The notes below the pieces were generated by a model. It was not told where the DNA came from and searched no databases. It worked only from the letters and a program-made list of their open reading frames with translations. This document shows positions 877 to 17,798 of a stretch of DNA of 64,000 nucleotides, in pieces. Numbering within the stretch: position 1 is the stretch's first letter; every line of letters begins with the position of its first letter. This stretch comes from Naegleria gruberi. Taxonomy: Eukaryota. The position numbers were made by a program, and so were the translations under genes. The stretch lies in the NCBI GenBank assembly GCA_000004985.1, contig GG738855.1, one strand, 5' to 3'.

Positions 877-2301
877 TTATTCAGAATGATGAATAGCATT
901 CAATAATAATTCCTTCATTGATTCTAAATCTTCCAAATGGTGAACAATGGATGATTGTGAATTTGTTAATTGAGGATCATTCTTTTTCTGTGAGAGAAAT
1001 GATGGTTTCTTATTAGTATCTTGATTCTTTTCCATTCTCAATCGATAAAATACACTATCCAATATTGATGATCCAGTAGAATGAGATGAACTTATCGATT
1101 CATTACCATATAATGAAGGTATTGGTTCCATCTCACATGCTTCAATAAATTCATCAATTAAAGAATTAGAACTTTCTATTGATGATTCGAGTTGACCAAG
1201 TAATAATTCAATACTAAATCCATCTAAAAGTTGTGTTGGAGATGATGATTCATCCATATCATTTGTATTATGTGGTGGGTATGTTTTGAATGTTGCATGA
1301 TTTATCAGTAATTCATAATATTTCATAATTGAATTAAATGATTCAATAAAATTATTCAATTGATATAATTGAGAACTGTGATCATTTAATAATAGTAAAT
1401 TCAATTCAAATGGTGTAAATCCAATATTTTCACATTCCATATTTAGTAAATAGGATTGCATAGTCTTGTTATATAAATTACTCATAATCATGAATATCTT
1501 ATTGATATTAATTATTAACTTGTGAATTAATTGAATGGTTGTAAACTTTTCATTTGGTGAAATATTTGAAGAATTCTTTACATTCTTTAAAAAATAATAC
1601 AATGAATGATCACTCGGCAATTCACCATTAATTAAATTTTGATTCAAATAATCCATATTCAAAATATGTTTGAAAAGTAATTGATCATGTGATAATATCA
1701 ACCAATTTAAAGTATTCAATAATTCTGTACATAATTGTTGATCATTTTTAGTAATTAATTTAAATGTTCTAGGATATTCTAATTTCATTAATTCATAATT
1801 TACATATTTGATGATTTTCTCCAAATCATGCTTCTCGTTATTAAGTGAAACCTTATTAAATTTATAAAGAATTAATACATTATATATTGTAATGTACATG
1901 GAACGAATTATTTGATGAAGCCTAGAATAATCATCCATAACATCATTATCATCACCATCACTAGCACCACCACTCAATACTAGCAAGATATCGGAACTAT
2001 CCAATCCACAATTTAATTCATAATGATTTAAAATTGATATTACAAAATCAACACATGATGCAAACTCTAGTGATATTGGAGACTTTTTGACTTTCCTATT
2101 TGATGAATTTCCTCCACTGCCAACAATCAATGATGAATTTCTTTTTGGACCAAGCCTAGTAGCACTACTTGTTGATTGATTACTACTAGTAGTCATCGAT
2201 GGTTGCTGTGATGTCTTTTTAATAAGAACATTTCCCCTATTCAAAATAATACTTTTCGATCCTCCACTCGAGGAAGAAGTGTTTTGATTTGTTCTTTTCA
2301 T
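877..2301 (-). CDS. Hypothetical protein, 474 aa, S/N-rich, no recognisable domain
   Basis: Long ORF with ATG start and the local codon bias. Nearby minus-strand ORFs are only low-complexity antisense frames. Confidence 0.55.
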   Translation of the reverse strand: MKRTNQNTSSSSGGSKSIILNRGNVLIKKTSQQPSMTTSSNQSTSSATRLGPKRNSSLIVGSGGNSSNRKVKKSPISLEFASCVDFVISILNHYELNCGLDSSDILLVLSGGASDGDDNDVMDDYSRLHQIIRSMYITIYNVLILYKFNKVSLNNEKHDLEKIIKYVNYELMKLEYPRTFKLITKNDQQLCTELLNTLNWLILSHDQLLFKHILNMDYLNQNLINGELPSDHSLYYFLKNVKNSSNISPNEKFTTIQLIHKLIININKIFMIMSNLYNKTMQSYLLNMECENIGFTPFELNLLLLNDHSSQLYQLNNFIESFNSIMKYYELLINHATFKTYPPHNTNDMDESSSPTQLLDGFSIELLLGQLESSIESSNSLIDEFIEACEMEPIPSLYGNESISSSHSTGSSILDSVFYRLRMEKNQDTNKKPSFLSQKKNDPQLTNSQSSIVHHLEDLESMKELLLNAIHHSE

Positions 2302-2458: not shown

Positions 2459-5141
2459 TTAATCCTTCTTTGAAAGGTAATAATCTAAAGATTGAACTAA
2501 ACCACCCTTTTCAGGTCTCTTCTTTCCCAATTGTTCTCTCTGTTTCACTAATTTAATTAAACCGTGATGAATTTTTTCACTTTGACCTTTAACCATATTT
2601 GCATAAAAATCAGCAGATAACCAACCACCAAAATCAGCAGTTACAGCATAGTAATATCTACACTTGATATCTGAAACTCTTTCTACCATGAATGCAGTTT
2701 TAACTTCACCTCTTACAAATTTAGAACATTCAGGAGCTTTTGGATGGTTGACTGAACGAGAAACACATAAATAACGTTGTTCATCTTCATCAAATTTACA
2801 ACAGAATGCATGAACGAATTCTCTATTCTTTTGTGGGAATTTCATTTTCAAAATTTCATGATGAATGACAGTTGCATAATTTCCAGATTTGATAAAATCA
2901 ATTTGTTTACAACTTTCTAATCTTTCTTCTCTTGATTGAATATAATCTGGATCAATCCACATATTGAAAAGTGAATGAGAACTGCACTCCATTTCACCAA
3001 CATATTTGATTTGAGTGTGACGACGTGAATTACTCAAGTGATTGTGAAGTTCTGGTGGTGAACTGTAGGTACGTCCAGTATCTGAATCATGAATAACTCT
3101 CCACTGATTCATATCTTTGAGATTTTCAATAATCTTTTTAAATTCCTTATCAGTATAGACATAATTTTCCAAATTGATAAGTTCAGTACCACATTTTGGA
3201 CAGAATTTAACATGTTCCTTAACATCACAATCATCTTCAAGTTCAATAATTTCATCACTATCACTTGATCTATCCTTATCACTTGAAGTTGATCCTGTAT
3301 TATTTGTACTACCACCAGTTGTTGTTGAATGATGAGTTCCTCTTGTTGAACCACCTTGATCTGAAGTGTCATCTGATGACTTGTCAGAAGTTAATTCAGA
3401 TTTAATAAATCTGACAAGGAATGTTGGATCAGTTTGCTTCTTTCTTTCAAGATATTTTGTAAAAAGTTTACTATGAATAAACTTTGGAAATGAATCAACT
3501 TTAAGTGAACGAATGGCCAAAGTTTCCAAATTCAAGAATAAATCCTTTGGACAATGATCAGCTGAACATTCATTGAATTTAACACGGAATGGACCGAATG
3601 CATTCTTTAGGAATTTGAGTTTGTGTTGAGAATCTTCTGAAATGAAATGTTCAACAATTTGTTCAGCCTGATGATATCTTTCAGAGTGTGAATTTATCAT
3701 TTTAAATTCTTGAACTGTTTCATAGAATAACATCATATCTTGATTATTATTTAAACTAAGGAAATCTTTCATCTTGGAAACAAAGGTATGATCAGTGATG
3801 AGTTTGTGGAATCTGTAATTTTCTGGATTGGTCAAATCAATTTGTAATAGAGTTTTGGAAATGTCATCTTCTTGTTTCAATTCATGTTTGAATTGTTGAA
3901 GGAGGAATTGAATAGTTTCGTCCTTATTATTTACCTTGGTACATGCTTTAGAATTATTGTACAAGATACGAGCACATTTGTAAGCAGATGATTTTAAAGC
4001 AATGTGCATTGGAGTATCACCATCATTATTTTGAATTAAACAATCACTTGGTTTCAATTGATTCAATGAGAAACAAATTTCAGGATAATTATTAATAACT
4101 GACAAGTGAAGTGGAGTGTTTCCATTTTGATCTCTTTCACAAGTCATTTCACTAATATTCTGTTCAGATAAATGTGTTAATAATTCACCCAATGAATGAA
4201 TATATCCCATTGATGCACATTTGTGAAGAATATTTTGTTTTTCTGGATTCTTAAATCTCACCAAAGTATTCACATATTCAACAGCATCGAAACTAGCTCT
4301 CTTATTAGCACTACTGCTATTAATGAGTGTTCTCTTTGGTTCCTTTCCACTTGGACTCAATGATTTCAATACTTGATTAATCATTCTTGGATATTGAAGT
4401 GCTAAGAAGAATGGAATTTCACCCCTTGTATTTGTTTTTAACAAATCGGCACCACATTGAGTAACGAGAAAGACAACACTTGCAATATTACCACTCTTAA
4501 CAGCCTCATGAATTGCTGTATTATTGTCCTTATCAATAATTTGATTAATATTGGCATTTCCTTCGGCATATAATAGGTAGGCAGCTGGAAGATTATTATT
4601 CTTCAGGGCAATGTAGAATGGTGAATAACCACAACTATTCACAATATTGGCATTGGCTTGATTGGATAACAAATATTCTAAAATCTATTTGTGTATATTG
4701 TATTAGATAAGAGAAACGAATAAATCATATGAGGAATCATCATTGAAAATCATTGAATTATTCATCAATGTGTATATGTAATGAAGAGTAAACATTTCTT
4801 TTATCATGATAATAAAAACAACAACTTACAGTTTCAGATTTGTGATAATTCTTCATCTCTACACAATAAAAAACACAAGATTGTTGATTCTTGTCCAAAT
4901 AATTTAAACTAGCATTGAATTGTTTGTGTAGTAATCTAATCATTTGAATGTTTCCTTCCTCAGTTGCAGTCATTAAAAGTGTTTTACCATTGTTATCTAA
5001 TGCATACAATTCATCAACATTAAAGTTTTCTGTTATTTTGGATTTGTCTCTTTGAATTTCATCACTTAGTGTTTCTAAATGTTGTTCCTTGATGAGTTTA
5101 TGAAGTACTTGACGTCTTTCAACAGAGATTGTTGTTGACAT
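2459..5141 (-). CDS. Ankyrin-repeat + RGS domain + C-terminal START-like lipid-binding domain protein. Two exons: 4830..5141 and 2459..4684; intron 4685..4829, GTAAGT...ATAG
   Basis: Exon 1 (ORF 4758..5141, ATG at 5141) carries an ankyrin motif and ends at a GTAAGT donor. Splicing to the ATAG acceptor joins in frame as ...KNYHKSET|ILEYLLSNQANANIV.... Ankyrin repeats: TAIHEAVKSGNIASVVFLV, TPLHLSV, TPMHIAL. RGS-like segment: FYETVQEFK...QIVEHFISEDS. Zn-ribbon CPKCGTEL. C-terminal block ...VRGEVKTAFMVERV...ADFGGWLSADF resembles a START/Bet v1 fold. Confidence 0.7.
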
Positions 5142-5519: not shown

Positions 5520-8500
5520 TTAAAAAGGTGGCAAATCATTATCATCCATTTCATCAATTAATTCATCAGCACTAACTGCATTGAAAATTAAAGTCTTTTT
5601 CCTAATGAATAATTGTTCAATGGTTTCAGCATCCACATAAATTGGGGATCCTTCGAGATTATAAGTCTTGGCATTACTAACCAATAATTTGACATCTCTT
5701 TCCATATCATCAATTCCTAAATAACTACCATTTCTAACCTTCCTTTCAATGTCATGCAAACAAATAGGATTCTTAATAATTTCATAGTAAGTTGGGTATT
5801 CTTCCTTGTTAGGAAGCTCTAAGAAAGGAAAAACAAGAGATTTTCCAGTATCATCAGTTGTATTACCAATATCCATGTAGATTTGATAAAGTTTCTTAGT
5901 TACCGTATCACTCAAATCAGCAAGAACTTTATCATATGATTTACCATCATAAGAATATCCAAGAGTTGGTTCTTCTTCAACTACTTTCTTCTTTCTACCT
6001 CTTCCTGGACCAGGTGCTTTCTTTTTCTTTGCTGCTGGTTCTTCTTTCTTTACTGGTGCCTTTCTCTTTCTCTTCTTTGTGTTTTCCTCTTCCTCTTCTT
6101 CTTCCTCAGGTTCTTCTTCTGGTTCAGCTACTTCTTCATCGTCTTCATCTCCATCTTCTTCATCACTTGAGTCAATGATTGATGATTCGGCACGTTTTCT
6201 TCTACCTCTTCCAAGTTCTTCCTTTTCTTCTTCCTCTTCCTCACCAACTTCTCTTATCCATGATGGAAGTTCATCAGCAGACATCAAACGAGGAGGAACA
6301 TTTTCACCATATTTTTCGATAAGTTGTGCTTCTTGTTCCTTATCCATAGTTTGGAAGATTTCAAATTCATCATCACTTCTTGCTAACAAATTGTTCATTT
6401 GTTCATCAGAAGGAGCTTCGTGAGCACTGTAAATATCACTTTCTTTCTTGAGAAGGGTTTCCAAAAGTTCTTGTCTTTCCAAAATTGTAGATTTTTGATT
6501 GAATTTACCAGCCTTAATGACCTTGGCTTCTGCATCTCTTTTTTCTTGGGCACGATCTCTGACTTTTTCTTCTACAGGAGTACGTGTACAGAATGTAAGA
6601 ACCAAAACAGACTTAGTTTGACCAATACGGTGAGCTCTGGCCATAGCTTGCAAATCTTGTTGAGGATTCCAATCGCTATCAAACATGATAACAGTATCAG
6701 CAGTTTGAAGGTTAAGACCCAAACCACCTGAACGTGTACTCAGCAAGAAAACAAAATATGGAGAATCCTTGGCATTCCATTGCTTGACAAGGGTACCTCT
6801 ATCAGCCGCATTAACAGCACCGTCAAGTCTAAGATATTCATAACCAAGATGAGATAAAAATTCCTCGAAAATATCAAGAATTTGGGTCATTTGACTGAAC
6901 AACAAAACTCTGTGACCAGTTCTCTTCAACTTAGGGAAAATTCTTGATAATAATTCAAATTTACCAGATGATCTACACATCCAATCATAGTAAGTTTCAT
7001 CGCTCAAATTATTCAAATACTCAGTTTCTTTGAAGAATAAATAAGGGTGGTTACAAACTTTTCTAAGTTGCATAACAGTATTGTTCAGAGATGTATTTCT
7101 GAGTTTCTTACCATTCAATACAATCTTATTCTTATCTTGAATATTTTGATACAATGTTTTTTGCATGGCTGATAAATCGATATAAACAACCTTTTCTGAT
7201 TTTTCAGGTAATTGTTCTTCAACATCTGTCTTTTCTCTTCTCAAGAGGAAAGGACGAAGAACTTGGTGAAGTCTGTGAATAATAAGAAGTTTTTCTTCTT
7301 CTGTCATTTCTACCTTTTCACCAGAAGCAGCAAAAGGAGAATTGAACCAATTTTCAAAGTTGAGAGAGCTATCAAAAATCTTAGGTAATAAAAAATGAAG
7401 AAGTGCCCACAACTCTTTCAAGTCGTTTTGAAGAGGAGTACCAGTAAGCAAAACTCTGTTTCTTGAAGTATACTCAGCGAGAGCTTTAACTAATTTACAA
7501 TCAGAGTTCTTAATTCTGTGACCTTCATCCATGATAATATAATTCCATTGAATCTTTTTCATGAATTTCTTTTCTTTGGTAATATATTCATATTGGATCA
7601 ATAAAACTTCAAAGTCTTGTTTCTTCAACTCTAAATGAATTTTTTGTCTTTCTTGTTTGGTACCACTATATCTTATTAACTTTAAAGTTGGACACCATTT
7701 TTCAAATTCGTTAGCCCAATTGTCCATAGTTGACAATGGTACAATTACCAAGTGTGGACCCTTGTTACTTTTAAACTCGTAAAGATATGATAAAAGTGAA
7801 ATGGTTTGAATTGTCTTACCGAGACCCATTTCATCAGCTAAAATACCATTCAATCTATTGTTATAAAGAGAAACAAGCCATTGTAAACCTTGTATCTGGT
7901 ATGCTTTAAGATCACCTCCTTTAAGAATTGTTGGTTGTTTTTCAACTTTTTCAACAAGTCTGTGGGCAACCTTATAGTAATTGTTTTGGTTGAGTAAGAA
8001 TTTCTTAAACAATGATCCACCCTTTTCACCATCCTCTTCTTGATCAAATTCTACAACTTCAGCATCACCATCTCTTTCAGAGACCAAAGATGCTCCCAAA
8101 CTTTTAAGACATGAATCTGTTTGTTTAAGTAATTCGGTCAATCTTCCTTCCTTTGTTTGTTCCAATAATTTAAAGTAGGCTTCTTCATCATTTTCTTTCA
8201 AAGCCTTCAATCTGGCCTTTTCAGCTTTAGCTTTCTTTTCCTTTTCAGCCTTTGCCTTCTTTTCAAAGAATTGTGTCAAATCTTTGTTAATTTTATCTAC
8301 TGGCTTCTTGATATCATTCTTGAAGGCTTCCTTGATCTTCTTTTTCTTAGCAATCAAATCGGCTAGGATTGCCTTCTTACTTTTGTTAGTATTCTTTTCC
8401 TTTGGTTTAGTTGATCTATTTTTCTTCGGAATTTCATTAACCAAGGATTGGGTTCTTGCAATATGACTCTCACCGTTTTGAGTCACTGACTGGTTTTTTA

Positions 8501-9371
8501 GCTGACGAATAATATCTGCTCTTAATTCTTTTTGTTGTTTAAGTAATTGGAATTGTTTAATCTCAATAGCTGCTTTAACTTGCTCATTTTGTGGAAGAGA
8601 AGTAAAACTCATCTTGAGATTATCAAATCTTCTTTTCATCTTGTGTTGAATTCTCTTTTCTCTTTCCTTGTACAAGGTTTGAAGATCTAGATTTTGTTGT
8701 CTTTGACTATCTGGATTTATCTTTGATTCCATTTGTTTGGCAGCATTCATTTGAACATGTTGATTAGGAATATTTGGTGCTTGGATCATTTGTCCATTTG
8801 GATTAACAAATGGTTGTGGTTGATTTGGTTGATTTGGTTGCACTTTACGGAGTTGAGTATTTAATTGAACATTGTTTGGTTGTTGTTGAAGAGGTTGTGG
8901 AATGACTGGTCCTACATTTGTTGTTGTTGTTGTTGATTGTGGAGCACCTTGCTTCAAGTAAACTGTTTCATATTCCTTCAAATTATTCTCAACATTGTTG
9001 CCCATGATAGCAAATTGTAAAGAAGTAGGAATTGGTTCTCTCTTAGAAATGTGATGTTTAAAAGCATAGATTTGTGCTTTCAATCTTTCCTTTTGTTGTG
9101 TAGTGAACAAACTTTGTTGTTGTTGTGGTTGTTGTTGTTGTAGAGTTTGTGGATTGATGGTTGCTAGTGAAGGTTGTACGGGTGTTGGAAGCACATTGTT
9201 AATTGTCTGTTGATTTTGTTGTTTCATCTGATTTTGATTGTTAAGTTGTGCTTTCAAGAATTGATGAAGACTTTTATATTGTGGGTCATTCAAATCCTTT
9301 CCTTCACTCTTCAACCTCTTCAACAAGCCCATATACAACTGAAGTTGTTGAGAAGAAAGTTGTTTGTCCAT
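5520..9371 (-). CDS. SNF2: SWI/SNF catalytic ATPase (SNF2/Brahma/BRG1 family), 1283 aa, with C-terminal bromodomain; intronless
   Basis: N-terminal QLQ-like segment and an HSA-like basic region. Helicase motifs DEMGLGKT, DEGHRIKN, LLLTGTPLQN and C-terminal helicase lobe FLLSTRSGGLGLNLQ, QAMARAHRIGQ. Acidic E-rich tail followed by a bromodomain (...YYEIIKNPICLHDIERKV...LLVSNAKTYN). Confidence 0.95.
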   Translation of the reverse strand: MDKQLSSQQLQLYMGLLKRLKSEGKDLNDPQYKSLHQFLKAQLNNQNQMKQQNQQTINNVLPTPVQPSLATINPQTLQQQQPQQQQSLFTTQQKERLKAQIYAFKHHISKREPIPTSLQFAIMGNNVENNLKEYETVYLKQGAPQSTTTTTNVGPVIPQPLQQQPNNVQLNTQLRKVQPNQPNQPQPFVNPNGQMIQAPNIPNQHVQMNAAKQMESKINPDSQRQQNLDLQTLYKEREKRIQHKMKRRFDNLKMSFTSLPQNEQVKAAIEIKQFQLLKQQKELRADIIRQLKNQSVTQNGESHIARTQSLVNEIPKKNRSTKPKEKNTNKSKKAILADLIAKKKKIKEAFKNDIKKPVDKINKDLTQFFEKKAKAEKEKKAKAEKARLKALKENDEEAYFKLLEQTKEGRLTELLKQTDSCLKSLGASLVSERDGDAEVVEFDQEEDGEKGGSLFKKFLLNQNNYYKVAHRLVEKVEKQPTILKGGDLKAYQIQGLQWLVSLYNNRLNGILADEMGLGKTIQTISLLSYLYEFKSNKGPHLVIVPLSTMDNWANEFEKWCPTLKLIRYSGTKQERQKIHLELKKQDFEVLLIQYEYITKEKKFMKKIQWNYIIMDEGHRIKNSDCKLVKALAEYTSRNRVLLTGTPLQNDLKELWALLHFLLPKIFDSSLNFENWFNSPFAASGEKVEMTEEEKLLIIHRLHQVLRPFLLRREKTDVEEQLPEKSEKVVYIDLSAMQKTLYQNIQDKNKIVLNGKKLRNTSLNNTVMQLRKVCNHPYLFFKETEYLNNLSDETYYDWMCRSSGKFELLSRIFPKLKRTGHRVLLFSQMTQILDIFEEFLSHLGYEYLRLDGAVNAADRGTLVKQWNAKDSPYFVFLLSTRSGGLGLNLQTADTVIMFDSDWNPQQDLQAMARAHRIGQTKSVLVLTFCTRTPVEEKVRDRAQEKRDAEAKVIKAGKFNQKSTILERQELLETLLKKESDIYSAHEAPSDEQMNNLLARSDDEFEIFQTMDKEQEAQLIEKYGENVPPRLMSADELPSWIREVGEEEEEEKEELGRGRRKRAESSIIDSSDEEDGDEDDEEVAEPEEEPEEEEEEEENTKKRKRKAPVKKEEPAAKKKKAPGPGRGRKKKVVEEEPTLGYSYDGKSYDKVLADLSDTVTKKLYQIYMDIGNTTDDTGKSLVFPFLELPNKEEYPTYYEIIKNPICLHDIERKVRNGSYLGIDDMERDVKLLVSNAKTYNLEGSPIYVDAETIEQLFIRKKTLIFNAVSADELIDEMDDNDLPPF

Positions 9372-10382: not shown

Positions 10383-13300
10383 ATGCTTCAGCACATGGTA
10401 AAATATTTAATTTTTCTTTCACTACTATTCATCAGTGTTGAGTATGTAATGAGTTTCAACTCCTATCAAAAGGAAACCCTTGTGAAGAATACTGACACTA
10501 CTCTTGAGGTACCTGCTGATATTGCTAAAATTGAACCCTCTAGTTTGTGTGTGATGGACAATGGTGATATTATATTTGTTGAAAAGACAATATTAAAAAG
10601 GTTCAAATCCAGCAGCAAAACTGTGGAATTGTTTCTCGGTAAGGGAAGTAGAACTGATGATGGTGTTGATTCTAAAAGTGTTGATTCAACGAGTGCTTCA
10701 ATGAATAATGTTGTGAGTGTTTTTAAATCACCTGCAACTGGTGATTGTGTCTACATGGATCAAAAACGTGTGAGGATGATATCAAAAACCACAAATTTGG
10801 TAACTACAATTGCTGGTTCACTCACAAGCACCAATACGTCAGACGGTCAGTTTGCCACTAGTGCTAAATTCTTTCCCAAAGCCTTTACTATTGATGAGTA
10901 TGGAAATTTGTATGTGGTAGATTTTAATGTTAGAATTAGGAAAGTTTCTAACACTACCAAAATGGTTTCAGCTTTTTCTGGAGCCACTGGAACAAGTGCT
11001 TCAACACTCCCAATAGATGGCTCACCTGCAAATACTAATCTAGGAAGCATTAGCAGCCTACTTGCAAAAAATGATATTGTTTACTTTACTGTGAGTAATG
11101 CCATTCTTAAAGTTGTTAATGGTGCCTATTATACAGTTGCTGGAAGTTGGATAGCATGTACACCTAATGCTACATTTGAGGGCGATGCTAAATCTGCTTG
11201 TTTTGACCAGCCAAAACTAGTAACAATTTCAGATGGTGAAATTCTCCTCACTGATAACTCTCTTACCATTAGGAAGATTGACAGGAATGGAGTTATTAAA
11301 ATAGTTGCTGGAACAGGAAGTGATATAATTGACATTTCTAGACAAGATCAAATGTTTCAAAATGTGACGTTTTTATTGGCGGGAATTTCAGTCGAAAAGA
11401 AAAATAATGAACTTGAATATTATCTCTCAATTGGAGGTGCCATCTTTAAAGCATTTGAAAAGTCAACCATTTCTGCCATTGTTAAAAAGAGTCTCAATTT
11501 ATCATACTCTTCTTATGATTATGGATTACAGTTTAAATCAGCCAAAAAGATTGCACAAGTATTTAGAAATGGTGATATTTTGATTATTGATCCTGATAAT
11601 CAAACTCTTTACAGATTTTCCAGACAGACAGGTATATTATCCCTTTTCACAAAACTGGACATTACAGTGACTATGTTATTTGTGGAAGATCTCAACTATT
11701 CATTCCTTTACATGGCCAGCACTATTACAAGTTGGAAAATTTACAAGTTTTACCTCAAAACAAAAAGTTTAGAACTTATTGCAGGAAATGACACTGGAAT
11801 ATTTTATAAATTTGATGGTCAAAAAGCTCTTGAAACCAGAATATATGGCATTGATGACATTAAAATTCATAATCATTTACTTTATTACAGAGATATGAGT
11901 TTGAATAGAATTATGGAATTGAATCCAAATACTGGTGAATTGAGAAGTTATTTTGGTAATGGTGAAGCTCAAGGAAAAGCTGTCGGTGGTATTAATGGAC
12001 ATTTACTTGGTTCTGAATTTATTAGAGAGAGTGCAAGTCCTGGAATAATGACTTTTGATTTGAATGGTGTTCTATATATCAGAAATACCAATATTGTGGT
12101 CTATATTGATAAGGATAAAAAATTAAGAAGATTTATAGGAAAGAATGGAGTGAGTGGACTAAACCTTTATTACCCTGTTCCAATTGAAGATGTTTTGATA
12201 GGTGGATCATCAACCATAAGGTTTCATCCAACTAGTGGAAATTGCTACCTTAATATTTACAACAGCACTTTTTCCAGCATATACCAAGTTTCAAACGGAA
12301 TGCTAACTGAAGAAATTAGAGTACCTGTCTCAACTTCTGTTGATTTTGCACTCACATCGAATGGAAGTATTTACTACTTACATGATGGTCTCAAAGTAAG
12401 ACACAAGGGAGCAGGAACCTCAGAAGTATTAATTAGTTTGGGTACCTATAATAGAATATGTCTTTCTGGTAATGATACATTAATTTTAAGTACAGTCAAT
12501 TCTCTTATATACAAGTATAATATCAATACTCGTGTACAAACATCACTTTCACTGTACACTTGGAAATATATCAGAACAATTCATTGTTCTATGAATAGTT
12601 CTGATGTTTATGTGAGTGATTTCCCAGTGACCAATCCAGTCACTTATTCCATTACAAAAATTACAAATTCATACACCTCAGTGGTTTCAGTGATTAAATC
12701 ACCATATCTTCCGTATGATATTGATTCGGTAGCATCAAGTCCAAGTGGAGAGCTGTATCTGCTTGCTACCAATGCAGTTCTTTATCAATTAGATTCCAAT
12801 ACAACATTGGAACCCATTGGTGGTTTAAAGATTAACACAACTTACTCGCTTCAACCAATGAGTAGATATGCTTTATGGTCGATTGCTCCAAATGGAGATG
12901 TCTATTTCAGAGAATATGAAGATGATAATCCTTTGAGAATAGCTTCTCCAAGTGCAAATATTGCTACAATCATTCCAGGAAATGGAACGCTTTACAATCC
13001 AACAACTTTGAATGGTTATAACAATGTTTTTGGAGAAGAATTTACCAAAGATGGATATCTTTTCATCATGTCCATGTTTAATGGTGAAAAAATACCTGAT
13101 GGAAAAACATTAACCTATTCTCCATTTACAGGTCTATATTTCTATTCTGATTTTGACTATAAATTTGGCCAGACAACCAAAACAAGAGATGGAGATTATC
13201 TATATTTAACCACATCATATGGAATTGAAAGATTATCTGTAGATTGTGTGAGAGATAGATATGGATTTTGCTACCAAGAAGATCCATTTTGTTTTGGAAT

Positions 13301-16300
13301 TCATTACAATAACGTTTCAGCTTGTGGTGGTCAAGGAGTTTGTTTCGATTACAATTCATGTGAATGTGAAGAGGGATATTTTGGACAAGATTGTTCACTC
13401 AGATTATGTTTTGGAACACTGAGTAATGAATCAGAATTGGTTTGTAGTGGAAATGGTAAATGTAATGATACTGACACATGTCAATGCAATGATGGCTATT
13501 TCTCTACTCAATGTGAAATTACTACTTGTTTTGGAATACTATCAAATGATACAAGTGTTTGCTCATCACATGGAAATTGTTCGTCTTGGAATAATTGTTC
13601 CTGTTTAGAAGGCTATTATGGAATTTATTGTAATGAAAGCAAGAGTTTCGGTAATGAAAATAATACCATTTCTAATAACACTTTTCAATCAAACGAAACC
13701 CATATTGAGAATACTACGATATCCTCAAATAGTACACTCAACTCTACCATTTCAAATTCAACTTTTGAAATAACCAATAGCTCACAAATTGAAAACTCAA
13801 CGTTACAATCAAATAATTCAAATTCAAATAACGTTTCTGTTATTAATAATACAACTGAACAAGGTACAAACAATAGTTTAATTTCGAATGAAACTCTTAA
13901 TAATAGCACAGATATAAGCAATCATTCAATGGTCAATGATACTCTAGTTTCTAATAGTACATACCATGGAACTAACTTTACACAAATGAATAATGATTCG
14001 ACTGTGAGAAATGACACAAATATCAACCTTCATTCAAATAGCACAAATAACTCAAGTATTTCAAATAATACAGTTTCTAATTCCAATACTACTGAAGGAC
14101 GAAACTATACTCAATTTAATGATACAATGAGAAATGAAACCATCTCTTCAAATATAACTACTAAAGAGACACTAAATGAAACAAGATTCGACAATATGGT
14201 GAATAATTCTATAGTGAACAGCACATTGAATTCTAATAACTCTCAAATATTGAATGATTCAACAGTTTCTAATAACACATCGATGTTCGAATGTTTTGGT
14301 AAAATGTTCAATAATTCTTTGGTGTGTAATGGGCATGGTTCTTGCATTTCACAGAATTTATGCAAATGTCATGATTTATATTTTGGTGTGGAGTGTCAAA
14401 ATAAGTCTATTGATCCAATTACCTGTTATGGAATTAACCAGTCCAATGACAGTGTGTGCAATAATGGTGGCGTTTGTATATCGAATGACACTTGTCAATG
14501 CAAGACTGGTTATTATGGTACGAAATGTTCTGTATTTCTTTTAGCACAACCTAATTTTAATAATTATGGTAATACTCTTGAATTTCATTTCAAAACTTCA
14601 ATTACTATGAGTGATCATGTTGTGGATTGTAAGAAAATCATAGTTACAGTTGATAATACCATTTTTGGAGAGAATCCAACATGTTATTGGAAGAACTCAA
14701 ATTTCTTTATTGAACTCGGAGGTCAACACTCCATTAGACAAAATATTACAATTAATGTGAATGGTTTGGATGATTCTGAAAGTAGAACTCTTTATTTATC
14801 ATTGACTGTGATTCCATCTCTCAATCCTGTGAAACCTGTTGCTGTATTGTCATACAAGAAATTGATTAGTAGTTGTGAGATGATTGAAATTGATGCTTCT
14901 CAATCCTATTGTGGTGATTTGAAACCATTAAAATATATTTGGTCAATTGAATCATCTGATGATCCTAAATTGAGCTTTCAAAATATAATTTACACTAATG
15001 AGTTCAATTCTTCCATTCGTGTAGATAATGGATCATCTGGTGTTTATATCTTTGGATTGATTATTCAAAGTTCATTGAGTGGTGTATCAAGTGAAAAGGA
15101 ATTTATCACTATCACCAAGTCAACTGTTCCAAGTCCAACAATTTCAATAATTAACAGCAAATTATCGAATGTAGAATTGAATAGTGTACCAATTATTATC
15201 AAAAAGACCATTGAATTTCCATCTTGCTATTTTGGTAATAAGGAATTCACCTATGTTTGGACCAAAATCAGTGGATCTTCATTGAATTATGAAATTGACT
15301 CTAATAATGATCTTGTAATTAAAGAATTCCAAGATGGTGCGGATCAGATTTATTCATTCCAACTTCAAGCTCAATTCGACTCTCATTCAAATAGCTCAAC
15401 TTCAAGTGTCACAATATCAACAAAATCCAAAGAGCTTGAGTTGAATATTTTCACATCAAGCTTGTCAACTTCAGAGGCAACGTTACAAGTTGAATATTCA
15501 GATCCAGATAACTTACAATCAACAGAAGAATGGACATGGAAATGCCTTGATTCAAAGCAGGCTTGTCAAGATGCTTCAATTACTTCCTCTTTGGCTTTAT
15601 GTTCCAAGAAAAAATCTGAAACTTGTACCATTCAAAAGTCAACACTTTCAAAATTCGATATTTCCTTATTGATTCAAAAAGGATCAAGATTTATTGAAAA
15701 AAGTATTGAGGTAACTTTCCCATCTAGTGTGTCAAATATTCCTCCAGCGATTAGTTTAGTATCAGTTTATCCAAAGAGGTTTAAGGTTACTAAAGATGAA
15801 ATTTTGAGTTTACAACTTTCTGTAATTTTAAATGGTGATGAAAAGATAACTCTCGAAGAAAATATATCAAGAGAATGGACAATGAACGATAAATCCATTG
15901 ATGCATCCATGACAACCTTGATGAAATCTGACATTTCAAAAACTTCTTCTCTAATTTTATCACTTTCTGAACTGCTTGAGGATACTGAGTATACACTCAC
16001 ACTCAAAGCAACGGATATTATCAATGGACTAGCTTCTTTATATTCCTATTCTTTCAAAGTTGTAAAATCTCCAAAATCTTGCAAATGTTCAATAAGTCCA
16101 TCATCAGGTTACGCTTTGGAAACTTCCTTCTCATTTTCATGTCCTAATTGTCAGAATGCAGAAGGCACAATTGATTTTGTCTTTGGATTTATTGACGACA
16201 AGTCAGGTGTCAAGATTCCACTTTACAACTTGGGAGAGAAATTTGCAACTTATTTCCCATCTCCATATACAGGTGAAACTTTATCAACATTTGTTTCAAT

Positions 16301-17798
16301 TGTTGACACTGACACTGGTGCATCTGTTGAAATTAAAAAGGAAGTTTTAATTTTAACACCTGTAGCAAAGAGTGTCACAGAAACAAAAAAGAAAGTGACA
16401 TTATGGCAGAAATATGCCTCATCTGCAAGTGACAGTGCCAAATTGGTGTTCAATTCTGCAACAATCTCCAGAACTGCAGAGTTGATGTTAGCAAAATTAA
16501 ATTCGAAACGATCTGCACCATGTTCTAATCATGGAGAATACAATTCAGAAAGTGGAAAATGTGAATGTGATGAAGGGTATACTTCTTTGAATTGCTTGCT
16601 TACAGTTGAAGATTACAATGCTATATATTCATTGAGAGAAGAAATGATTGACAGAATGATTGTTGGTATTAATGAAAGAAATCCTCTCGAGCTATTGTGG
16701 GATGTACATTTAAAGATTTTCATCTTTGGATTGGAATCAATTGCTGCAAGTTCAGAAAGTATTTCTTCATTACCATTTGAGAAAATGTTTAATTTGACAG
16801 AAAAGTTAATTTTCATGGCAAATCAAAACACAAAATTAAGAACTTCTTATGGAGTGGATTATTTAATTAATAGTCTTTTGAATCATTTTATGAGATTATT
16901 AAGAAGAATAGAAAATAGTTACAGAACCAGATTGATTAATTTGTTAAAAATGACAAATAAGATTTTTATGAGAAATTATTTTGTTGGACAAGTTGATTAT
17001 TCAGTTAATTTATCAGAATTCTCGAGTGTTGCATCTCTGAATTACAGAAATCAACATTCAAACAAGATTATATCTCTGAGAAATAACACGTATTCTATTC
17101 GATTTGATGAAATAATGGGTGATGTTTCTAATAGAATAGTTTTATCTACATCAATGTTTTCTATTAGTGATTGTTTTGGAATTTCAAGTTTACTTTCTAA
17201 ACAATTTATCAAACAAGTAATTTATTCATTGAAAAATAGAGAAGAATCGTTTTCTAAACAGCTCAATTTAATGACCAATGTGATTGTAATGGATAAGAAG
17301 TATGAATCCAATCATCAATTCATTTTCAATATGCAGAATTACAATTTTACAAATTTAAATTTGGAAAAAGTCTCTCATCAAGTAGAATCGTTTGAAAATA
17401 GGGAAATTCAAACAAGGAACACTGTGAATACCACTTTAGAATGTACACCTCTTGAGAGCCTATTTGACATGTCAGTTTCCAACTGCTCAACCAGAATCTC
17501 ATATCCAAATGTCATTTGTGTTTGTCCCAACTCAGTTTCCTCAATTGTTATTCTTGAAAAGATACTCACAAACACCTTGATTCTAAATAGCGAAGATATT
17601 ATGAATCCAATACTGCCAATTTCAAACCAATATCATTTATATGGCCTATTTGGACTATTCGGACTATTGGTTGTAATATTATTGAGCTGTTTGAGTATAT
17701 GTCTTATTATAATTGTTTGCAAATTAAGGAAAAAGAAAACTAAAAAGAATGATAGTTGTTCAGCATCAGAGAAACAAATTGAATTGATAACAGTTTAA
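10383..17798 (+). CDS. Giant secreted type-I membrane adhesion-type protein, 2471 aa: signal peptide, NHL/beta-propeller-like repeats, tenascin-type EGF modules, N-glycosylation sequon array, REJ/PKD-like region, GPS-like motif, single C-terminal TM; intronless
   Basis: Hydrophobic N-terminus MVKYLIFLSLLFISV. Repeated ...YVVDFNVRIRKV / ...LLTDNSLTIRKIDRNG motifs. EGF modules CSGNGKCNDTDTCQCNDGYFSTQCE at about 13260-13620, 14290-14530 and 16500-16610. About 45 N-x-S/T sequons in about 215 aa (13640-14290). CVCPNSVSSIVILE just before the TM helix LFGLFGLLVVILLSCLSICLIIIV, then KLRKKK. Confidence 0.85.
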   Translation: MLQHMVKYLIFLSLLFISVEYVMSFNSYQKETLVKNTDTTLEVPADIAKIEPSSLCVMDNGDIIFVEKTILKRFKSSSKTVELFLGKGSRTDDGVDSKSVDSTSASMNNVVSVFKSPATGDCVYMDQKRVRMISKTTNLVTTIAGSLTSTNTSDGQFATSAKFFPKAFTIDEYGNLYVVDFNVRIRKVSNTTKMVSAFSGATGTSASTLPIDGSPANTNLGSISSLLAKNDIVYFTVSNAILKVVNGAYYTVAGSWIACTPNATFEGDAKSACFDQPKLVTISDGEILLTDNSLTIRKIDRNGVIKIVAGTGSDIIDISRQDQMFQNVTFLLAGISVEKKNNELEYYLSIGGAIFKAFEKSTISAIVKKSLNLSYSSYDYGLQFKSAKKIAQVFRNGDILIIDPDNQTLYRFSRQTGILSLFTKLDITVTMLFVEDLNYSFLYMASTITSWKIYKFYLKTKSLELIAGNDTGIFYKFDGQKALETRIYGIDDIKIHNHLLYYRDMSLNRIMELNPNTGELRSYFGNGEAQGKAVGGINGHLLGSEFIRESASPGIMTFDLNGVLYIRNTNIVVYIDKDKKLRRFIGKNGVSGLNLYYPVPIEDVLIGGSSTIRFHPTSGNCYLNIYNSTFSSIYQVSNGMLTEEIRVPVSTSVDFALTSNGSIYYLHDGLKVRHKGAGTSEVLISLGTYNRICLSGNDTLILSTVNSLIYKYNINTRVQTSLSLYTWKYIRTIHCSMNSSDVYVSDFPVTNPVTYSITKITNSYTSVVSVIKSPYLPYDIDSVASSPSGELYLLATNAVLYQLDSNTTLEPIGGLKINTTYSLQPMSRYALWSIAPNGDVYFREYEDDNPLRIASPSANIATIIPGNGTLYNPTTLNGYNNVFGEEFTKDGYLFIMSMFNGEKIPDGKTLTYSPFTGLYFYSDFDYKFGQTTKTRDGDYLYLTTSYGIERLSVDCVRDRYGFCYQEDPFCFGIHYNNVSACGGQGVCFDYNSCECEEGYFGQDCSLRLCFGTLSNESELVCSGNGKCNDTDTCQCNDGYFSTQCEITTCFGILSNDTSVCSSHGNCSSWNNCSCLEGYYGIYCNESKSFGNENNTISNNTFQSNETHIENTTISSNSTLNSTISNSTFEITNSSQIENSTLQSNNSNSNNVSVINNTTEQGTNNSLISNETLNNSTDISNHSMVNDTLVSNSTYHGTNFTQMNNDSTVRNDTNINLHSNSTNNSSISNNTVSNSNTTEGRNYTQFNDTMRNETISSNITTKETLNETRFDNMVNNSIVNSTLNSNNSQILNDSTVSNNTSMFECFGKMFNNSLVCNGHGSCISQNLCKCHDLYFGVECQNKSIDPITCYGINQSNDSVCNNGGVCISNDTCQCKTGYYGTKCSVFLLAQPNFNNYGNTLEFHFKTSITMSDHVVDCKKIIVTVDNTIFGENPTCYWKNSNFFIELGGQHSIRQNITINVNGLDDSESRTLYLSLTVIPSLNPVKPVAVLSYKKLISSCEMIEIDASQSYCGDLKPLKYIWSIESSDDPKLSFQNIIYTNEFNSSIRVDNGSSGVYIFGLIIQSSLSGVSSEKEFITITKSTVPSPTISIINSKLSNVELNSVPIIIKKTIEFPSCYFGNKEFTYVWTKISGSSLNYEIDSNNDLVIKEFQDGADQIYSFQLQAQFDSHSNSSTSSVTISTKSKELELNIFTSSLSTSEATLQVEYSDPDNLQSTEEWTWKCLDSKQACQDASITSSLALCSKKKSETCTIQKSTLSKFDISLLIQKGSRFIEKSIEVTFPSSVSNIPPAISLVSVYPKRFKVTKDEILSLQLSVILNGDEKITLEENISREWTMNDKSIDASMTTLMKSDISKTSSLILSLSELLEDTEYTLTLKATDIINGLASLYSYSFKVVKSPKSCKCSISPSSGYALETSFSFSCPNCQNAEGTIDFVFGFIDDKSGVKIPLYNLGEKFATYFPSPYTGETLSTFVSIVDTDTGASVEIKKEVLILTPVAKSVTETKKKVTLWQKYASSASDSAKLVFNSATISRTAELMLAKLNSKRSAPCSNHGEYNSESGKCECDEGYTSLNCLLTVEDYNAIYSLREEMIDRMIVGINERNPLELLWDVHLKIFIFGLESIAASSESISSLPFEKMFNLTEKLIFMANQNTKLRTSYGVDYLINSLLNHFMRLLRRIENSYRTRLINLLKMTNKIFMRNYFVGQVDYSVNLSEFSSVASLNYRNQHSNKIISLRNNTYSIRFDEIMGDVSNRIVLSTSMFSISDCFGISSLLSKQFIKQVIYSLKNREESFSKQLNLMTNVIVMDKKYESNHQFIFNMQNYNFTNLNLEKVSHQVESFENREIQTRNTVNTTLECTPLESLFDMSVSNCSTRISYPNVICVCPNSVSSIVILEKILTNTLILNSEDIMNPILPISNQYHLYGLFGLFGLLVVILLSCLSICLIIIVCKLRKKKTKKNDSCSASEKQIELITV
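13640..14290 (+). repeat. Coding low-complexity array of N-x-S/T glycosylation sequons (mucin-like stalk) inside the adhesion protein gene
   Basis: Translated: NNTISNNTFQSNETHIENTTISSNSTLNSTISNSTFEITNSSQIENSTLQSNNSNSNNVSVINNTTEQGTNNSLISNETLNNSTD... The repetition is at the peptide level; there is no exact DNA tandem unit. Confidence 0.7.

What the first reader, a model, noticed from the sequence alone, without database searches (positions are those of the whole stretch)
2459..5141. Composite ankyrin-RGS-START domain protein assembled from two exons
The separately listed 127-aa ORF 4758..5141 is the true first exon (GTAAGT donor; 145-nt intron, the longest coding-region intron I resolved after the ES1 and ZC3H15 5' introns). 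Together with the 737-aa ORF it encodes ankyrin repeats, an RGS-like helical domain, a Cys4 zinc ribbon and a C-terminal START/Bet v1-like lipid-binding domain. Coupling an RGS domain (G-protein GAP) to a lipid sensor is not a common arrangement.
Basis: partly seen in the sequence, partly recalled or inferred. Interest (0 to 1): 0.5.

Follow-up and report, generated by a model that had tools for sequence, protein, structure and literature searches.

The report
Naegleria ankyrin–RGS–START gene, already annotated
This is a correctly assembled two-exon Naegleria gruberi gene for an ankyrin–RGS–START protein, but public databases already hold it in exactly this form and it is one of many RGS–START proteins in this group of amoebae, so it is ordinary.

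Summary
Exon 1 (5141..4830, minus strand), a 145-nt GTAAGT…AG intron (4829..4685) and exon 2 (4684..2459) splice in frame to an 845-aa protein. That protein is 100% identical over its full length to the NCBI entry 'RGS domain-containing protein [Naegleria gruberi]'.

An intron sits at the same codon boundary in N. fowleri, N. lovaniensis and a fourth Naegleria-like contig. Its lengths are 119, 158 and 38 nt.

Two parts of the interpretation fail:
- The 'Cys4 zinc ribbon' is not there. Only one CxxC is conserved, possibly paired with a conserved HxH.
- RGS–START is not rare in this lineage. About 80 of the 150 best database representatives carry both domains, and every named one is heterolobosean (Naegleria, Acrasis, Willaertia). 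A 2014 survey already listed START and ankyrin among RGS fusion partners.

One nuance: the asparagine that RGS proteins use to contact Gα (RGS4 Asn128) is a lysine here, so GAP activity is doubtful. Interest is low.

The parts
4830..5141 (-). Exon 1: ATG at 5141, 104 codons, ends in phase 0 after …YHKSET. Encodes the N-terminal helix and the first ankyrin repeats.
   Evidence: sequence and translation. (identical to the annotated 845-aa protein). (junction conserved in orthologues).
4685..4829 (-). Intron: 145 nt, GTAAGT donor, ATAG acceptor, 23% GC. Unspliced reading ends at a stop at 4758.
   Evidence: an intron at the same position in N. fowleri (119 nt), N. lovaniensis (158 nt) and contig L003 (38 nt).
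2459..4684 (-). Exon 2: 741 codons plus the stop codon (2459..2461). Begins ILEYLLSNQ…
3917..5009 (-). Ankyrin-repeat region (about aa 45–360). It forms two blocks separated by a non-repeat insert at about aa 205–245, and it spans the intron.
   Evidence: Ank_2 99.9 bits, Ank_4, Ank, Ank_3, Ank_5. (PDB ankyrin and NOMPC hits, E down to 4.5e-25).
3452..3811 (-). RGS domain (aa 396–515). It is a full-length match to PF00615 with a nine-helix RGS fold.
3614..3616 (-). Codon for Lys461. It aligns with the Gα-contacting Asn128 of RGS4. The short RGS–START relatives keep E-x-N at this position.
   Evidence: MAFFT alignments. (K461 invariant in the four orthologues). In the alternative HMMER alignment Asn128 pairs with N465, which is Leu in N. 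fowleri and N. lovaniensis.
3212..3391 (-). Ser/Thr/Asp-rich linker (about aa 536–595), predicted disordered and variable in length and sequence among orthologues.
   Evidence: pLDDT below 50 for model residues 162–221. (poorly conserved, with indels).
3191..3202 (-). Conserved CPKC knuckle (C599, C602).
   Evidence: (Zn_Ribbon_1 18.1 bits, below the cut-off of 25). (no CxxC in any of 38 short RGS–START relatives).
3038..3046 (-). Conserved HNH motif (H651, H653). These are candidate partner ligands for the CxxC; this is an inference.
   Evidence: HxH conserved in every paralogue that has the CxxC and covers this region. (absent from the short relatives).
2462..3172 (-). Complete START (helix-grip) domain, about aa 609–845. 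The Pfam match covers aa 685–803 (window 2588..2944).

Best explanation
This is an ordinary, already annotated protein-coding gene of Naegleria gruberi. Two exons are joined across a conserved 145-nt intron and encode an 845-aa soluble multidomain signalling protein. The domain order is ankyrin repeats, RGS domain, disordered Ser/Thr-rich linker, a small CxxC…HxH element, and a complete START lipid-binding domain.

It belongs to a heterolobosean expansion of RGS–START proteins. Within that expansion it falls in a Naegleria subfamily with three shared features: the Gα-contact asparagine of the RGS domain is a lysine (the KLKF motif), a CxxC/HxH element precedes START, and the same RGS–CxxC–START module is also found attached to PAS–nucleotide cyclases.

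Inferred mechanism:
- The START pocket binds a hydrophobic ligand (a sterol or lipid) or engages membranes.
- The ankyrin repeats recruit partner proteins.
- The RGS-homology domain binds one of the many Naegleria Gα subunits as an adaptor or effector surface, rather than acting as a canonical RGS4-type GAP.
- Together these would link lipid status or location to G-protein signalling.

Shown: the gene structure, the domain identities and folds, the family distribution and the residue substitutions. Inferred: ligand binding, Gα binding, loss of GAP activity and zinc binding.
For: Gene model:
- Searches give the in-frame splice.
- One search shows 100% identity and 100% coverage to the annotated N. 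gruberi protein.
- Searches show an intron at the same codon boundary in three other Naegleria-lineage genomes.

Domains:
- One search gives Pfam ankyrin, RGS and START hits above the curated cut-offs, and one search finds them in all four orthologues.
- One search gives an AF2 model with mean pLDDT 85.5.

Family context:
- In one search a full HMMER scan finds 211 relatives.
- In one search about 80 of the 150 best representatives carry RGS followed by START.
- Searches show that every named representative is from Naegleria, Acrasis or Willaertia.
- One search confirms the domains by Pfam on a subset.
- One search identifies a full-length ankyrin–RGS–START paralogue in N. fowleri (38% identity over 807 aa).
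- One search shows the cyclase protein FDP41_000489 shares the RGS–CxxC–START module (43% identity over 468 aa).

Non-canonical RGS:
- Searches align RGS4 Asn128 with Lys461 and SEEN with NQDM. The short relatives keep E-x-N.
- One search lists the GRK2 RH domain among the best PDB sequence matches.

Literature:
- N. gruberi has 229 RGS proteins, START and ankyrin recur as fusion partners, and some RGS domains have lost GAP activity and act as scaffolds (PMC3971589).
- N. fowleri has 79 RGS proteins beyond the 7TM class (PMC9283941).
Against: - Nothing tested here shows binding of a lipid, a Gα subunit or zinc.
- The loop around Asn128 aligns ambiguously. HMMER pairs it with N465 in N. gruberi, although that residue is Leu in two orthologues.
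- Naegleria Gα subunits are divergent, so a co-evolved interface could still support GAP activity.
- The α7–α8 contact residues (RGS4 D163, S164, R167) are conserved as D-S…K.
- The CxxC region has low model confidence (pLDDT about 50), and I could not read coordinates to check whether CxxC and HxH are close.
Confidence: 0.6

Rival explanations
1. Canonical reading. The RGS domain is an active GTPase-activating protein for a Naegleria Gα subunit. The START domain brings it to, or switches it at, membranes of a particular lipid composition.
For: - The RGS match is full length and the fold superposes on RGS4 at 1.2 Å.
- The α7–α8 contact residues are conserved as D-S…K.
- The short members of the same family keep the E-x-N motif, so the ancestral module was probably a GAP.
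Against: - Lys461 replaces the Asn128 equivalent in all four orthologues and in every CxxC-bearing paralogue.
- The SEEN motif, including the Asn88 equivalent, is lost.
- From my own knowledge of the RGS4–Gαi1 interface, substitutions at Asn128 other than Ser strongly weaken Gα binding. I did not check this in a paper here.
Confidence: 0.25
2. The protein is mainly a lipid-transfer or lipid-binding protein, and its RGS-homology domain is a purely structural or scaffolding helical bundle with no link to G proteins. Axin and the SNX RGS domains are examples of this kind.
For: - The Gα-contact residues are degenerate.
- The literature notes RGS domains that lost GAP activity and became scaffolds (PMC3971589).
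Against: - The RGS and START domains are kept together, in the same order, across dozens of heterolobosean paralogues. This argues for functional coupling.
- The best structural matches are true R4-type RGS domains.
Confidence: 0.13
3. ORF 4758..5141 is a separate small gene, or chance ORF, and the large ORF starts independently.
For: None beyond the mechanical ORF list.
Against: - The 737-aa ORF has no ATG that would preserve its first ankyrin repeat.
- The ankyrin repeat is continuous across the junction.
- The spliced product equals the annotated protein.
- The intron position is conserved in four genomes, with lengths not divisible by three.
Confidence: 0.02

Closest known systems
NCBI/UniProt entry 'RGS domain-containing protein [Naegleria gruberi]' (845 aa) and its orthologues in N. 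fowleri (FDP41_008282, 870 aa) and N. lovaniensis (C9374_007590, 854 aa)
   Same: The N. gruberi entry is identical to the spliced product, with 100% identity and coverage. The orthologues are 71–72% identical and carry the same precomputed Pfam domains: ankyrin, RGS and START.
   Different: Nothing differs for the N. gruberi entry. The orthologues have longer, unconserved N-termini and shorter linkers.
N. fowleri FDP41_006167 (1231 aa), a paralogous ankyrin–RGS–CxxC–START protein
   Same: It has the same domain order, 38% identity over 807 aa, the same KLKF variant of the RGS loop, and the same CxxC and HxH motifs.
   Different: It has an N-terminal extension of about 450 aa. It is a distinct paralogue, not an orthologue.
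Short heterolobosean RGS–START proteins of about 390–560 aa (for example N. gruberi XP_002678782.1, and Acrasis kona KAL0482568.1 and KAL0481783.1)
   Same: RGS is followed by START in one polypeptide. They are detectably homologous over both domains, at about 20% identity.
   Different: They have no ankyrin repeats and no CxxC/HxH element. They keep the E-x-N motif corresponding to RGS4 Asn128.
PAS–adenylate/guanylate cyclase proteins of Naegleria (N. fowleri FDP41_000489, N. gruberi NAEGRDRAFT_45297)
   Same: They carry the same C-terminal RGS(KLKF)–CxxC–HxH–START module, 43% identical over 468 aa.
   Different: The N-terminal part is TPR/PAS plus a cyclase catalytic domain instead of ankyrin repeats. 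Pfam's RGS model does not reach significance on them.
Animal R4-type RGS proteins (RGS4, RGS3, RGS10)
   Different: The Gα-contact residues differ: SEEN becomes NQDM and Asn128 becomes Lys. The α5–α6 loop has a four-residue insertion in the HMMER alignment. The animal proteins have no START or ankyrin partners.
Animal START proteins (STARD10, CERT, STARD4, STARD5, StAR)
   Different: Identity is only 12–17%, the ligand is unknown, and a CxxC/HxH element precedes the domain.

Membership tests
RGS domain (Pfam PF00615) | Profile match above the curated gathering score, covering the whole domain | tested here: met
   48.2 bits against a cut-off of 23.9, profile positions 2–117 of 117. All four orthologues match.
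RGS domain (Pfam PF00615) | Nine-helix RGS fold | tested here: met
GAP-competent RGS proteins (RGS4-like A-site) | Conserved Gα-contact residues: RGS4 Ser85, Glu87 and Asn88, and Asn128 | tested here: not met
   SEEN aligns with NQDM. Asn128 aligns with Lys461, which is invariant in the orthologues. In the alternative alignment Asn128 pairs with N465, which is Leu in two orthologues. The D163, S164 and R167 equivalents are retained as D, S and K.
GAP-competent RGS proteins (RGS4-like A-site) | Acceleration of Gα GTP hydrolysis | not testable with these tools
   This needs a biochemical single-turnover GTPase assay.
START domain (Pfam PF01852) | Profile match above the gathering score | tested here: met
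   42.6 bits against a cut-off of 22, though only profile positions 69–187 of 207. All four orthologues match, best E 1.2e-13.
START domain (Pfam PF01852) | Complete helix-grip fold with N- and C-terminal helices | tested here: met
START domain (Pfam PF01852) | Binding of a lipid or sterol in the internal cavity | not testable with these tools
Ankyrin repeat proteins | Multiple tandem 33-residue repeats matching the Pfam ankyrin models | tested here: met
   Ank_2 99.9 bits in 4 stretches, with Ank_4, Ank, Ank_3 and Ank_5 also above their cut-offs. PDB ankyrin hits reach E 4.5e-25.
Cys4 zinc ribbon | Two CxxC knuckles (four Cys ligands), conserved, with a profile match above the cut-off | tested here: not met
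   Zn_Ribbon_1 scores 18.1 bits against a cut-off of 25. Only C599 and C602 are conserved, C590 is Y, Y or N in the orthologues, and there is no fourth Cys within 69 residues.
Heterolobosean RGS–START family | Homologous RGS and START domains in that order in one protein, from Heterolobosea | tested here: met
   about 80 of the 150 best representatives have both domains; the named members are all from Naegleria, Acrasis or Willaertia. Pfam confirmation on a subset.

The most novel reading that the evidence does not exclude
The C-terminal half is a distinct three-part module specific to Naegleria: an RGS-homology domain whose Gα-contact Asn is replaced by Lys, a CxxC…HxH metal site, and a START domain. 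The module has lost GAP activity and acts as a lipid- or sterol-gated Gα-binding or regulatory cassette. It has been plugged into either ankyrin scaffolds (this gene and FDP41_006167) or PAS–adenylate/guanylate cyclases. That would link membrane lipid state and G-protein state directly to cyclic-nucleotide output in these amoebae, including the pathogen N. fowleri.
Probability: 0.15. Interest if true: 0.45.

Novelty: already known. Interest (0 to 1): 0.15.

Why it matters
As found, it matters little. The gene model and its ankyrin, RGS and START annotation are already public. The architecture is one of many in the very large heterolobosean RGS expansion: 229 RGS proteins in N. gruberi according to PMC3971589.

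The useful outcomes are corrections:
- There is no Cys4 ribbon.
- RGS–START is common in this lineage.
- The RGS domain of this subfamily lacks the key Gα-contact asparagine, so it should not be assumed to be a GAP.

The one point with some wider value is that the same RGS–CxxC–START cassette is attached to nucleotide cyclases in Naegleria, including N. fowleri. This hints at a lineage-specific link between lipid sensing, G proteins and cyclic nucleotides that nobody appears to have tested.

Tried and rejected
- Word-indexed homologue searches with the C-terminal half and with a 39-sequence RGS–START alignment returned only the orthologues and one known hit. They were useless for finding distant relatives. 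The exhaustive HMMER scan was what revealed the family.
- The first AlphaFold run, on the 4-orthologue alignment, gave pLDDT 33.5 and I discarded it. The run with 39 diverse RGS–START sequences gave 85.5.
- The afdb50 fold library was not available, so I could not survey architectures in AlphaFold DB.
- A profile search of the START region against PDB sequences gave only weak hits: CERT E 0.12, and a spurious dehydratase hit at E 0.005. Fold comparison was needed.
- The papers: Anantharaman et al. 2011 (Gene 475:63), the likeliest source of an explicit RGS–START description, is not held. The supplementary figure S6 of de Mendoza et al. 2014 is not held. Searches for Naegleria/RGS/START, Acrasis/RGS and Naegleria/START domain found no functional study.
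- I considered the alternative acceptor AG at 4679/4678 and rejected it because it breaks the frame.
- A six-frame scan of the whole 64-kb window with my RGS, CxxC and START sub-profiles found no second copy.
Full report
**1. What is in the sequence**

On the minus strand, the mechanical ORF list shows a 127-aa ORF (4758..5141, ATG start) directly upstream of a 737-aa ORF (2459..4672).

Reading the strand and splicing it in silico gives the following:
- Exon 1 is 5141..4830 (312 nt, 104 codons) and ends …TAT CAC AAA TCT GAA ACT.
- The intron is 4829..4685: 145 nt, GTAAGT…ACAAATAG, 23% GC against 29–32% in the exons.
- Exon 2 is 4684..2459 and begins ATT TTA GAA TAT.
- The junction is in phase 0 and gives an 845-aa product.

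Only the first 104 of the 127 ORF codons are exon. The nearby AG at 4679/4678 is out of frame.

**2. Independent support for the gene model**

The 845-aa product is 100% identical over 100% of its length to an NCBI/UniProt protein named 'RGS domain-containing protein [Naegleria gruberi]'. This identifies the window as N. gruberi and shows the model is already public. Orthologues exist in N. lovaniensis (854 aa, 72%), N. fowleri (870 aa, 71%) and a metagenome contig (733 aa, N-terminally cut). The protein alignment is conserved straight across the junction (…YHKSET|ILEYL…).

I fetched the three orthologous loci and examined the DNA. Each has an intron at the same codon boundary, with a GTAAGT donor and an AG acceptor. 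The lengths are 119, 158 and 38 nt. None is a multiple of three, and the intron sequences are unrelated while the exon flanks are conserved. In the metagenome contig a prokaryote-style gene caller split the gene at this point into a 150-aa and a 733-aa ORF. This is the same artefact as the two ORFs in this window. The 'separate gene' alternative is effectively excluded.

**3. Domains**

Pfam gives five ankyrin families above their cut-offs (Ank_2 99.9 bits). RGS scores 48.2 bits against a cut-off of 23.9 over aa 396–515, covering the whole profile. START scores 42.6 bits against 22 over aa 685–803, covering profile positions 69–187 of 207. Zn_Ribbon_1 scores only 18.1 against 25. All four orthologues give the same result.

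A first AlphaFold run on the four orthologues was useless (pLDDT 33.5). After finding distant relatives (section 4) I re-ran aa 375–845 with a 39-sequence alignment and obtained pLDDT 85.5. It shows two confident domains and a disordered linker at model residues 162–221.
- Foldseek against the PDB puts START domains first: STARD10 at E 1.9e-13, then CERT, STARD5, StAR, STARD4 and PCTP.

So the START domain is complete even though the Pfam match is partial, and the RGS fold is canonical.

**4. The 'uncommon arrangement' claim**

An exhaustive HMMER scan of 1.84 billion cluster representatives with the RGS-to-START profile found 211 proteins at E ≤ 1e-3. I re-scored the retrieved sequences with separate RGS and START sub-profiles. 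About 80 of the 150 best representatives carry both domains in the order RGS then START, and most are 380–560 aa.

Every representative that carries an organism name is heterolobosean:
- N. gruberi: XP_002678782.1, XP_002672506.1, XP_002671609.1, XP_002676597.1 and XP_002683621.1.
- N. fowleri: several proteins.
- Acrasis kona: five proteins.
- Willaertia magna: one protein.

The remaining representatives are unnamed metagenome proteins. Of the nine proteins I put through Pfam, four (P0190, P0042, P0045, P0054) pass both the RGS and the START cut-off, P0054 only just.

N. fowleri FDP41_006167 is a full-length paralogue with the identical ankyrin–RGS–START order (38% identity over 807 aa).

The literature already records this. 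De Mendoza et al. 2014 count 229 RGS proteins in N. gruberi. They list START and ankyrin repeats among the domains repeatedly combined with RGS in divergent taxa (PMC3971589). Bosch et al. 2022 count 79 RGS proteins beyond the 7TM class in N. fowleri (PMC9283941).

RGS–START is therefore unusual from an animal, fungal or plant viewpoint, but it is a routine multi-copy architecture in this lineage and is not new.

**5. The 'Cys4 zinc ribbon'**

The stretch EDDCDVKEHVKFCPKCG has three cysteines, not four. C590 is Y, Y or N in the orthologues, and the next cysteine is 69 residues away.

What is conserved, both in the orthologues and in the paralogues that share this region, is a single C-x-K-C-G knuckle (C599, C602) and an H-x-H motif (H651, H653). 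Both motifs are absent from all 38 short RGS–START relatives. This co-occurrence is compatible with a joint C2H2 metal site capping the START N-terminus. That is an inference only.

**6. Is the RGS domain a GAP?**

I used two alignments: one with the 38 short relatives, and one with human RGS4 plus the paralogues. The RGS4 sequence came from my memory; its numbering checks out at S85, N128 and D163.

The near-invariant E-x-N motif of the family, which corresponds to RGS4 E126–N128, reads K-L-K in this protein. Lys461 is invariant in the four orthologues. It is shared by the FDP41_006167 group and by the cyclase paralogues, as the 'KLKF' motif. The SEEN motif reads NQDM.

HMMER's pairwise alignment to RGS10 instead inserts four residues and pairs the Asn with N465. 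However, N465 is Leu in N. fowleri and N. lovaniensis. Under either alignment the asparagine is not conserved. The α7–α8 contacts (D163, S164, R167) are kept as D, S and K.

From established knowledge of the RGS4–Gαi1 interface, Asn128 and Asn88 are central contacts. I therefore regard canonical GAP activity as doubtful, not disproved, because Naegleria Gα subunits are themselves divergent.

**7. Module shuffling**

The best non-orthologous hits to the linker-plus-START part (377–418 bits) are N. fowleri FDP41_000489 and N. gruberi NAEGRDRAFT_45297. Pfam shows TPR, PAS and an adenylate/guanylate cyclase domain in them. BLASTP shows that the C-terminal 468 aa of FDP41_000489 is 43% identical to the whole RGS–CxxC–HxH–START cassette of this gene. 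The cassette is therefore a mobile unit within Naegleria, attached either to ankyrin repeats or to cyclases.

**8. Most likely function**

Shown: a soluble protein with no transmembrane hits, built of ankyrin repeats, an RGS-homology domain, a disordered linker, a CxxC/HxH element and a START domain.

Inferred: the START domain binds a sterol or lipid, or docks on membranes. The ankyrin repeats bind partner proteins. The RGS-homology domain engages a Gα subunit as an adaptor or effector surface rather than as an RGS4-type GAP.

Rivals are the canonical lipid-targeted GAP (about 0.25) and a lipid-binding protein whose RGS bundle is purely structural (about 0.13). No functional study of any RGS–START protein was found in the held literature.

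**9. Surroundings**

The neighbours are unrelated:
- A Brahma/SNF2-type chromatin remodeller at 5520..9371 (−), with QLQ, SNF2, Helicase_C, SnAC and bromodomain hits.
- A 474-aa Ser/Asn-rich ORF at 877..2301 (−) with no Pfam hit.
- A 2471-aa EGF-repeat and REJ-domain protein at 10383..17798 (+).

No second RGS or START copy lies in the window.

**10. Verdict**

The exon structure and the three main domains are right. The Cys4 ribbon is wrong, the rarity claim does not hold in this lineage, and the GAP function is doubtful. The gene and its architecture are already known, so interest is low (0.15). The only mildly novel thread is the Lys-variant RGS–CxxC/HxH–START cassette shared with cyclases.

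Noticed in passing
window 5520..9371 (-): The upstream neighbour is a 1283-aa Brahma/SNF2-type chromatin-remodelling ATPase. It has QLQ, SNF2-related, Helicase_C, SnAC and bromodomain hits and lies in a single uninterrupted ORF.
   Followed up: partly
window 10383..17798 (+): A 2471-aa single-ORF protein with many EGF/teneurin-type EGF repeats and a REJ domain (the polycystin-1 / sperm receptor-for-egg-jelly type; 74.9 bits). This is an animal-like extracellular architecture in an amoeboflagellate.
   Followed up: no
window 877..2301 (-): The downstream neighbour is a 474-aa ORF with a Ser/Asn-rich N-terminus and no Pfam match at E ≤ 0.001.
   Followed up: no
P0185 (N. fowleri FDP41_000489, 2109 aa) and P0037 (N. 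gruberi NAEGRDRAFT_45297, 1673 aa): These TPR/PAS–adenylate/guanylate cyclase proteins end in the same RGS(KLKF)–CxxC–HxH–START cassette (43% identity over 468 aa). Pfam's RGS model misses the RGS part in both, and misses START in P0037, so the database annotation under-describes them.
   Followed up: partly
P0059 (Willaertia magna KAL9658754.1, 644 aa): This protein has an N-terminal RGS domain, a START-like middle region (seen only with my sub-profile, 57 bits) and a C-terminal BLUF blue-light sensor domain (78 bits). It is a possible light-regulated G-protein regulator.
   Followed up: no
L003 3522..6202 (ENA ERZ27315067 contig k141_290708): A metagenomic contig from a fourth Naegleria-like species carries the orthologue with an intron of only 38 nt at the same position. 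The prokaryote-style gene caller split the gene into 150-aa and 733-aa ORFs.
   Followed up: yes
P0087 (904 aa), P0126 (1623 aa), P0153 (1537 aa), P0180 (1172 aa): Some unnamed representatives hit the START sub-profile two or three times in one protein and have no RGS hit. They appear to be tandem multi-START proteins of unknown origin.
   Followed up: no
window 3212..3391 (-), aa 536–595: The linker between RGS and the CxxC is Ser/Thr/Asp/Asn-rich, variable in length among the orthologues and predicted disordered. It ends in a conserved acidic SDSDE-I-I-E motif that could be a phosphorylation or interaction site.
   Followed up: no
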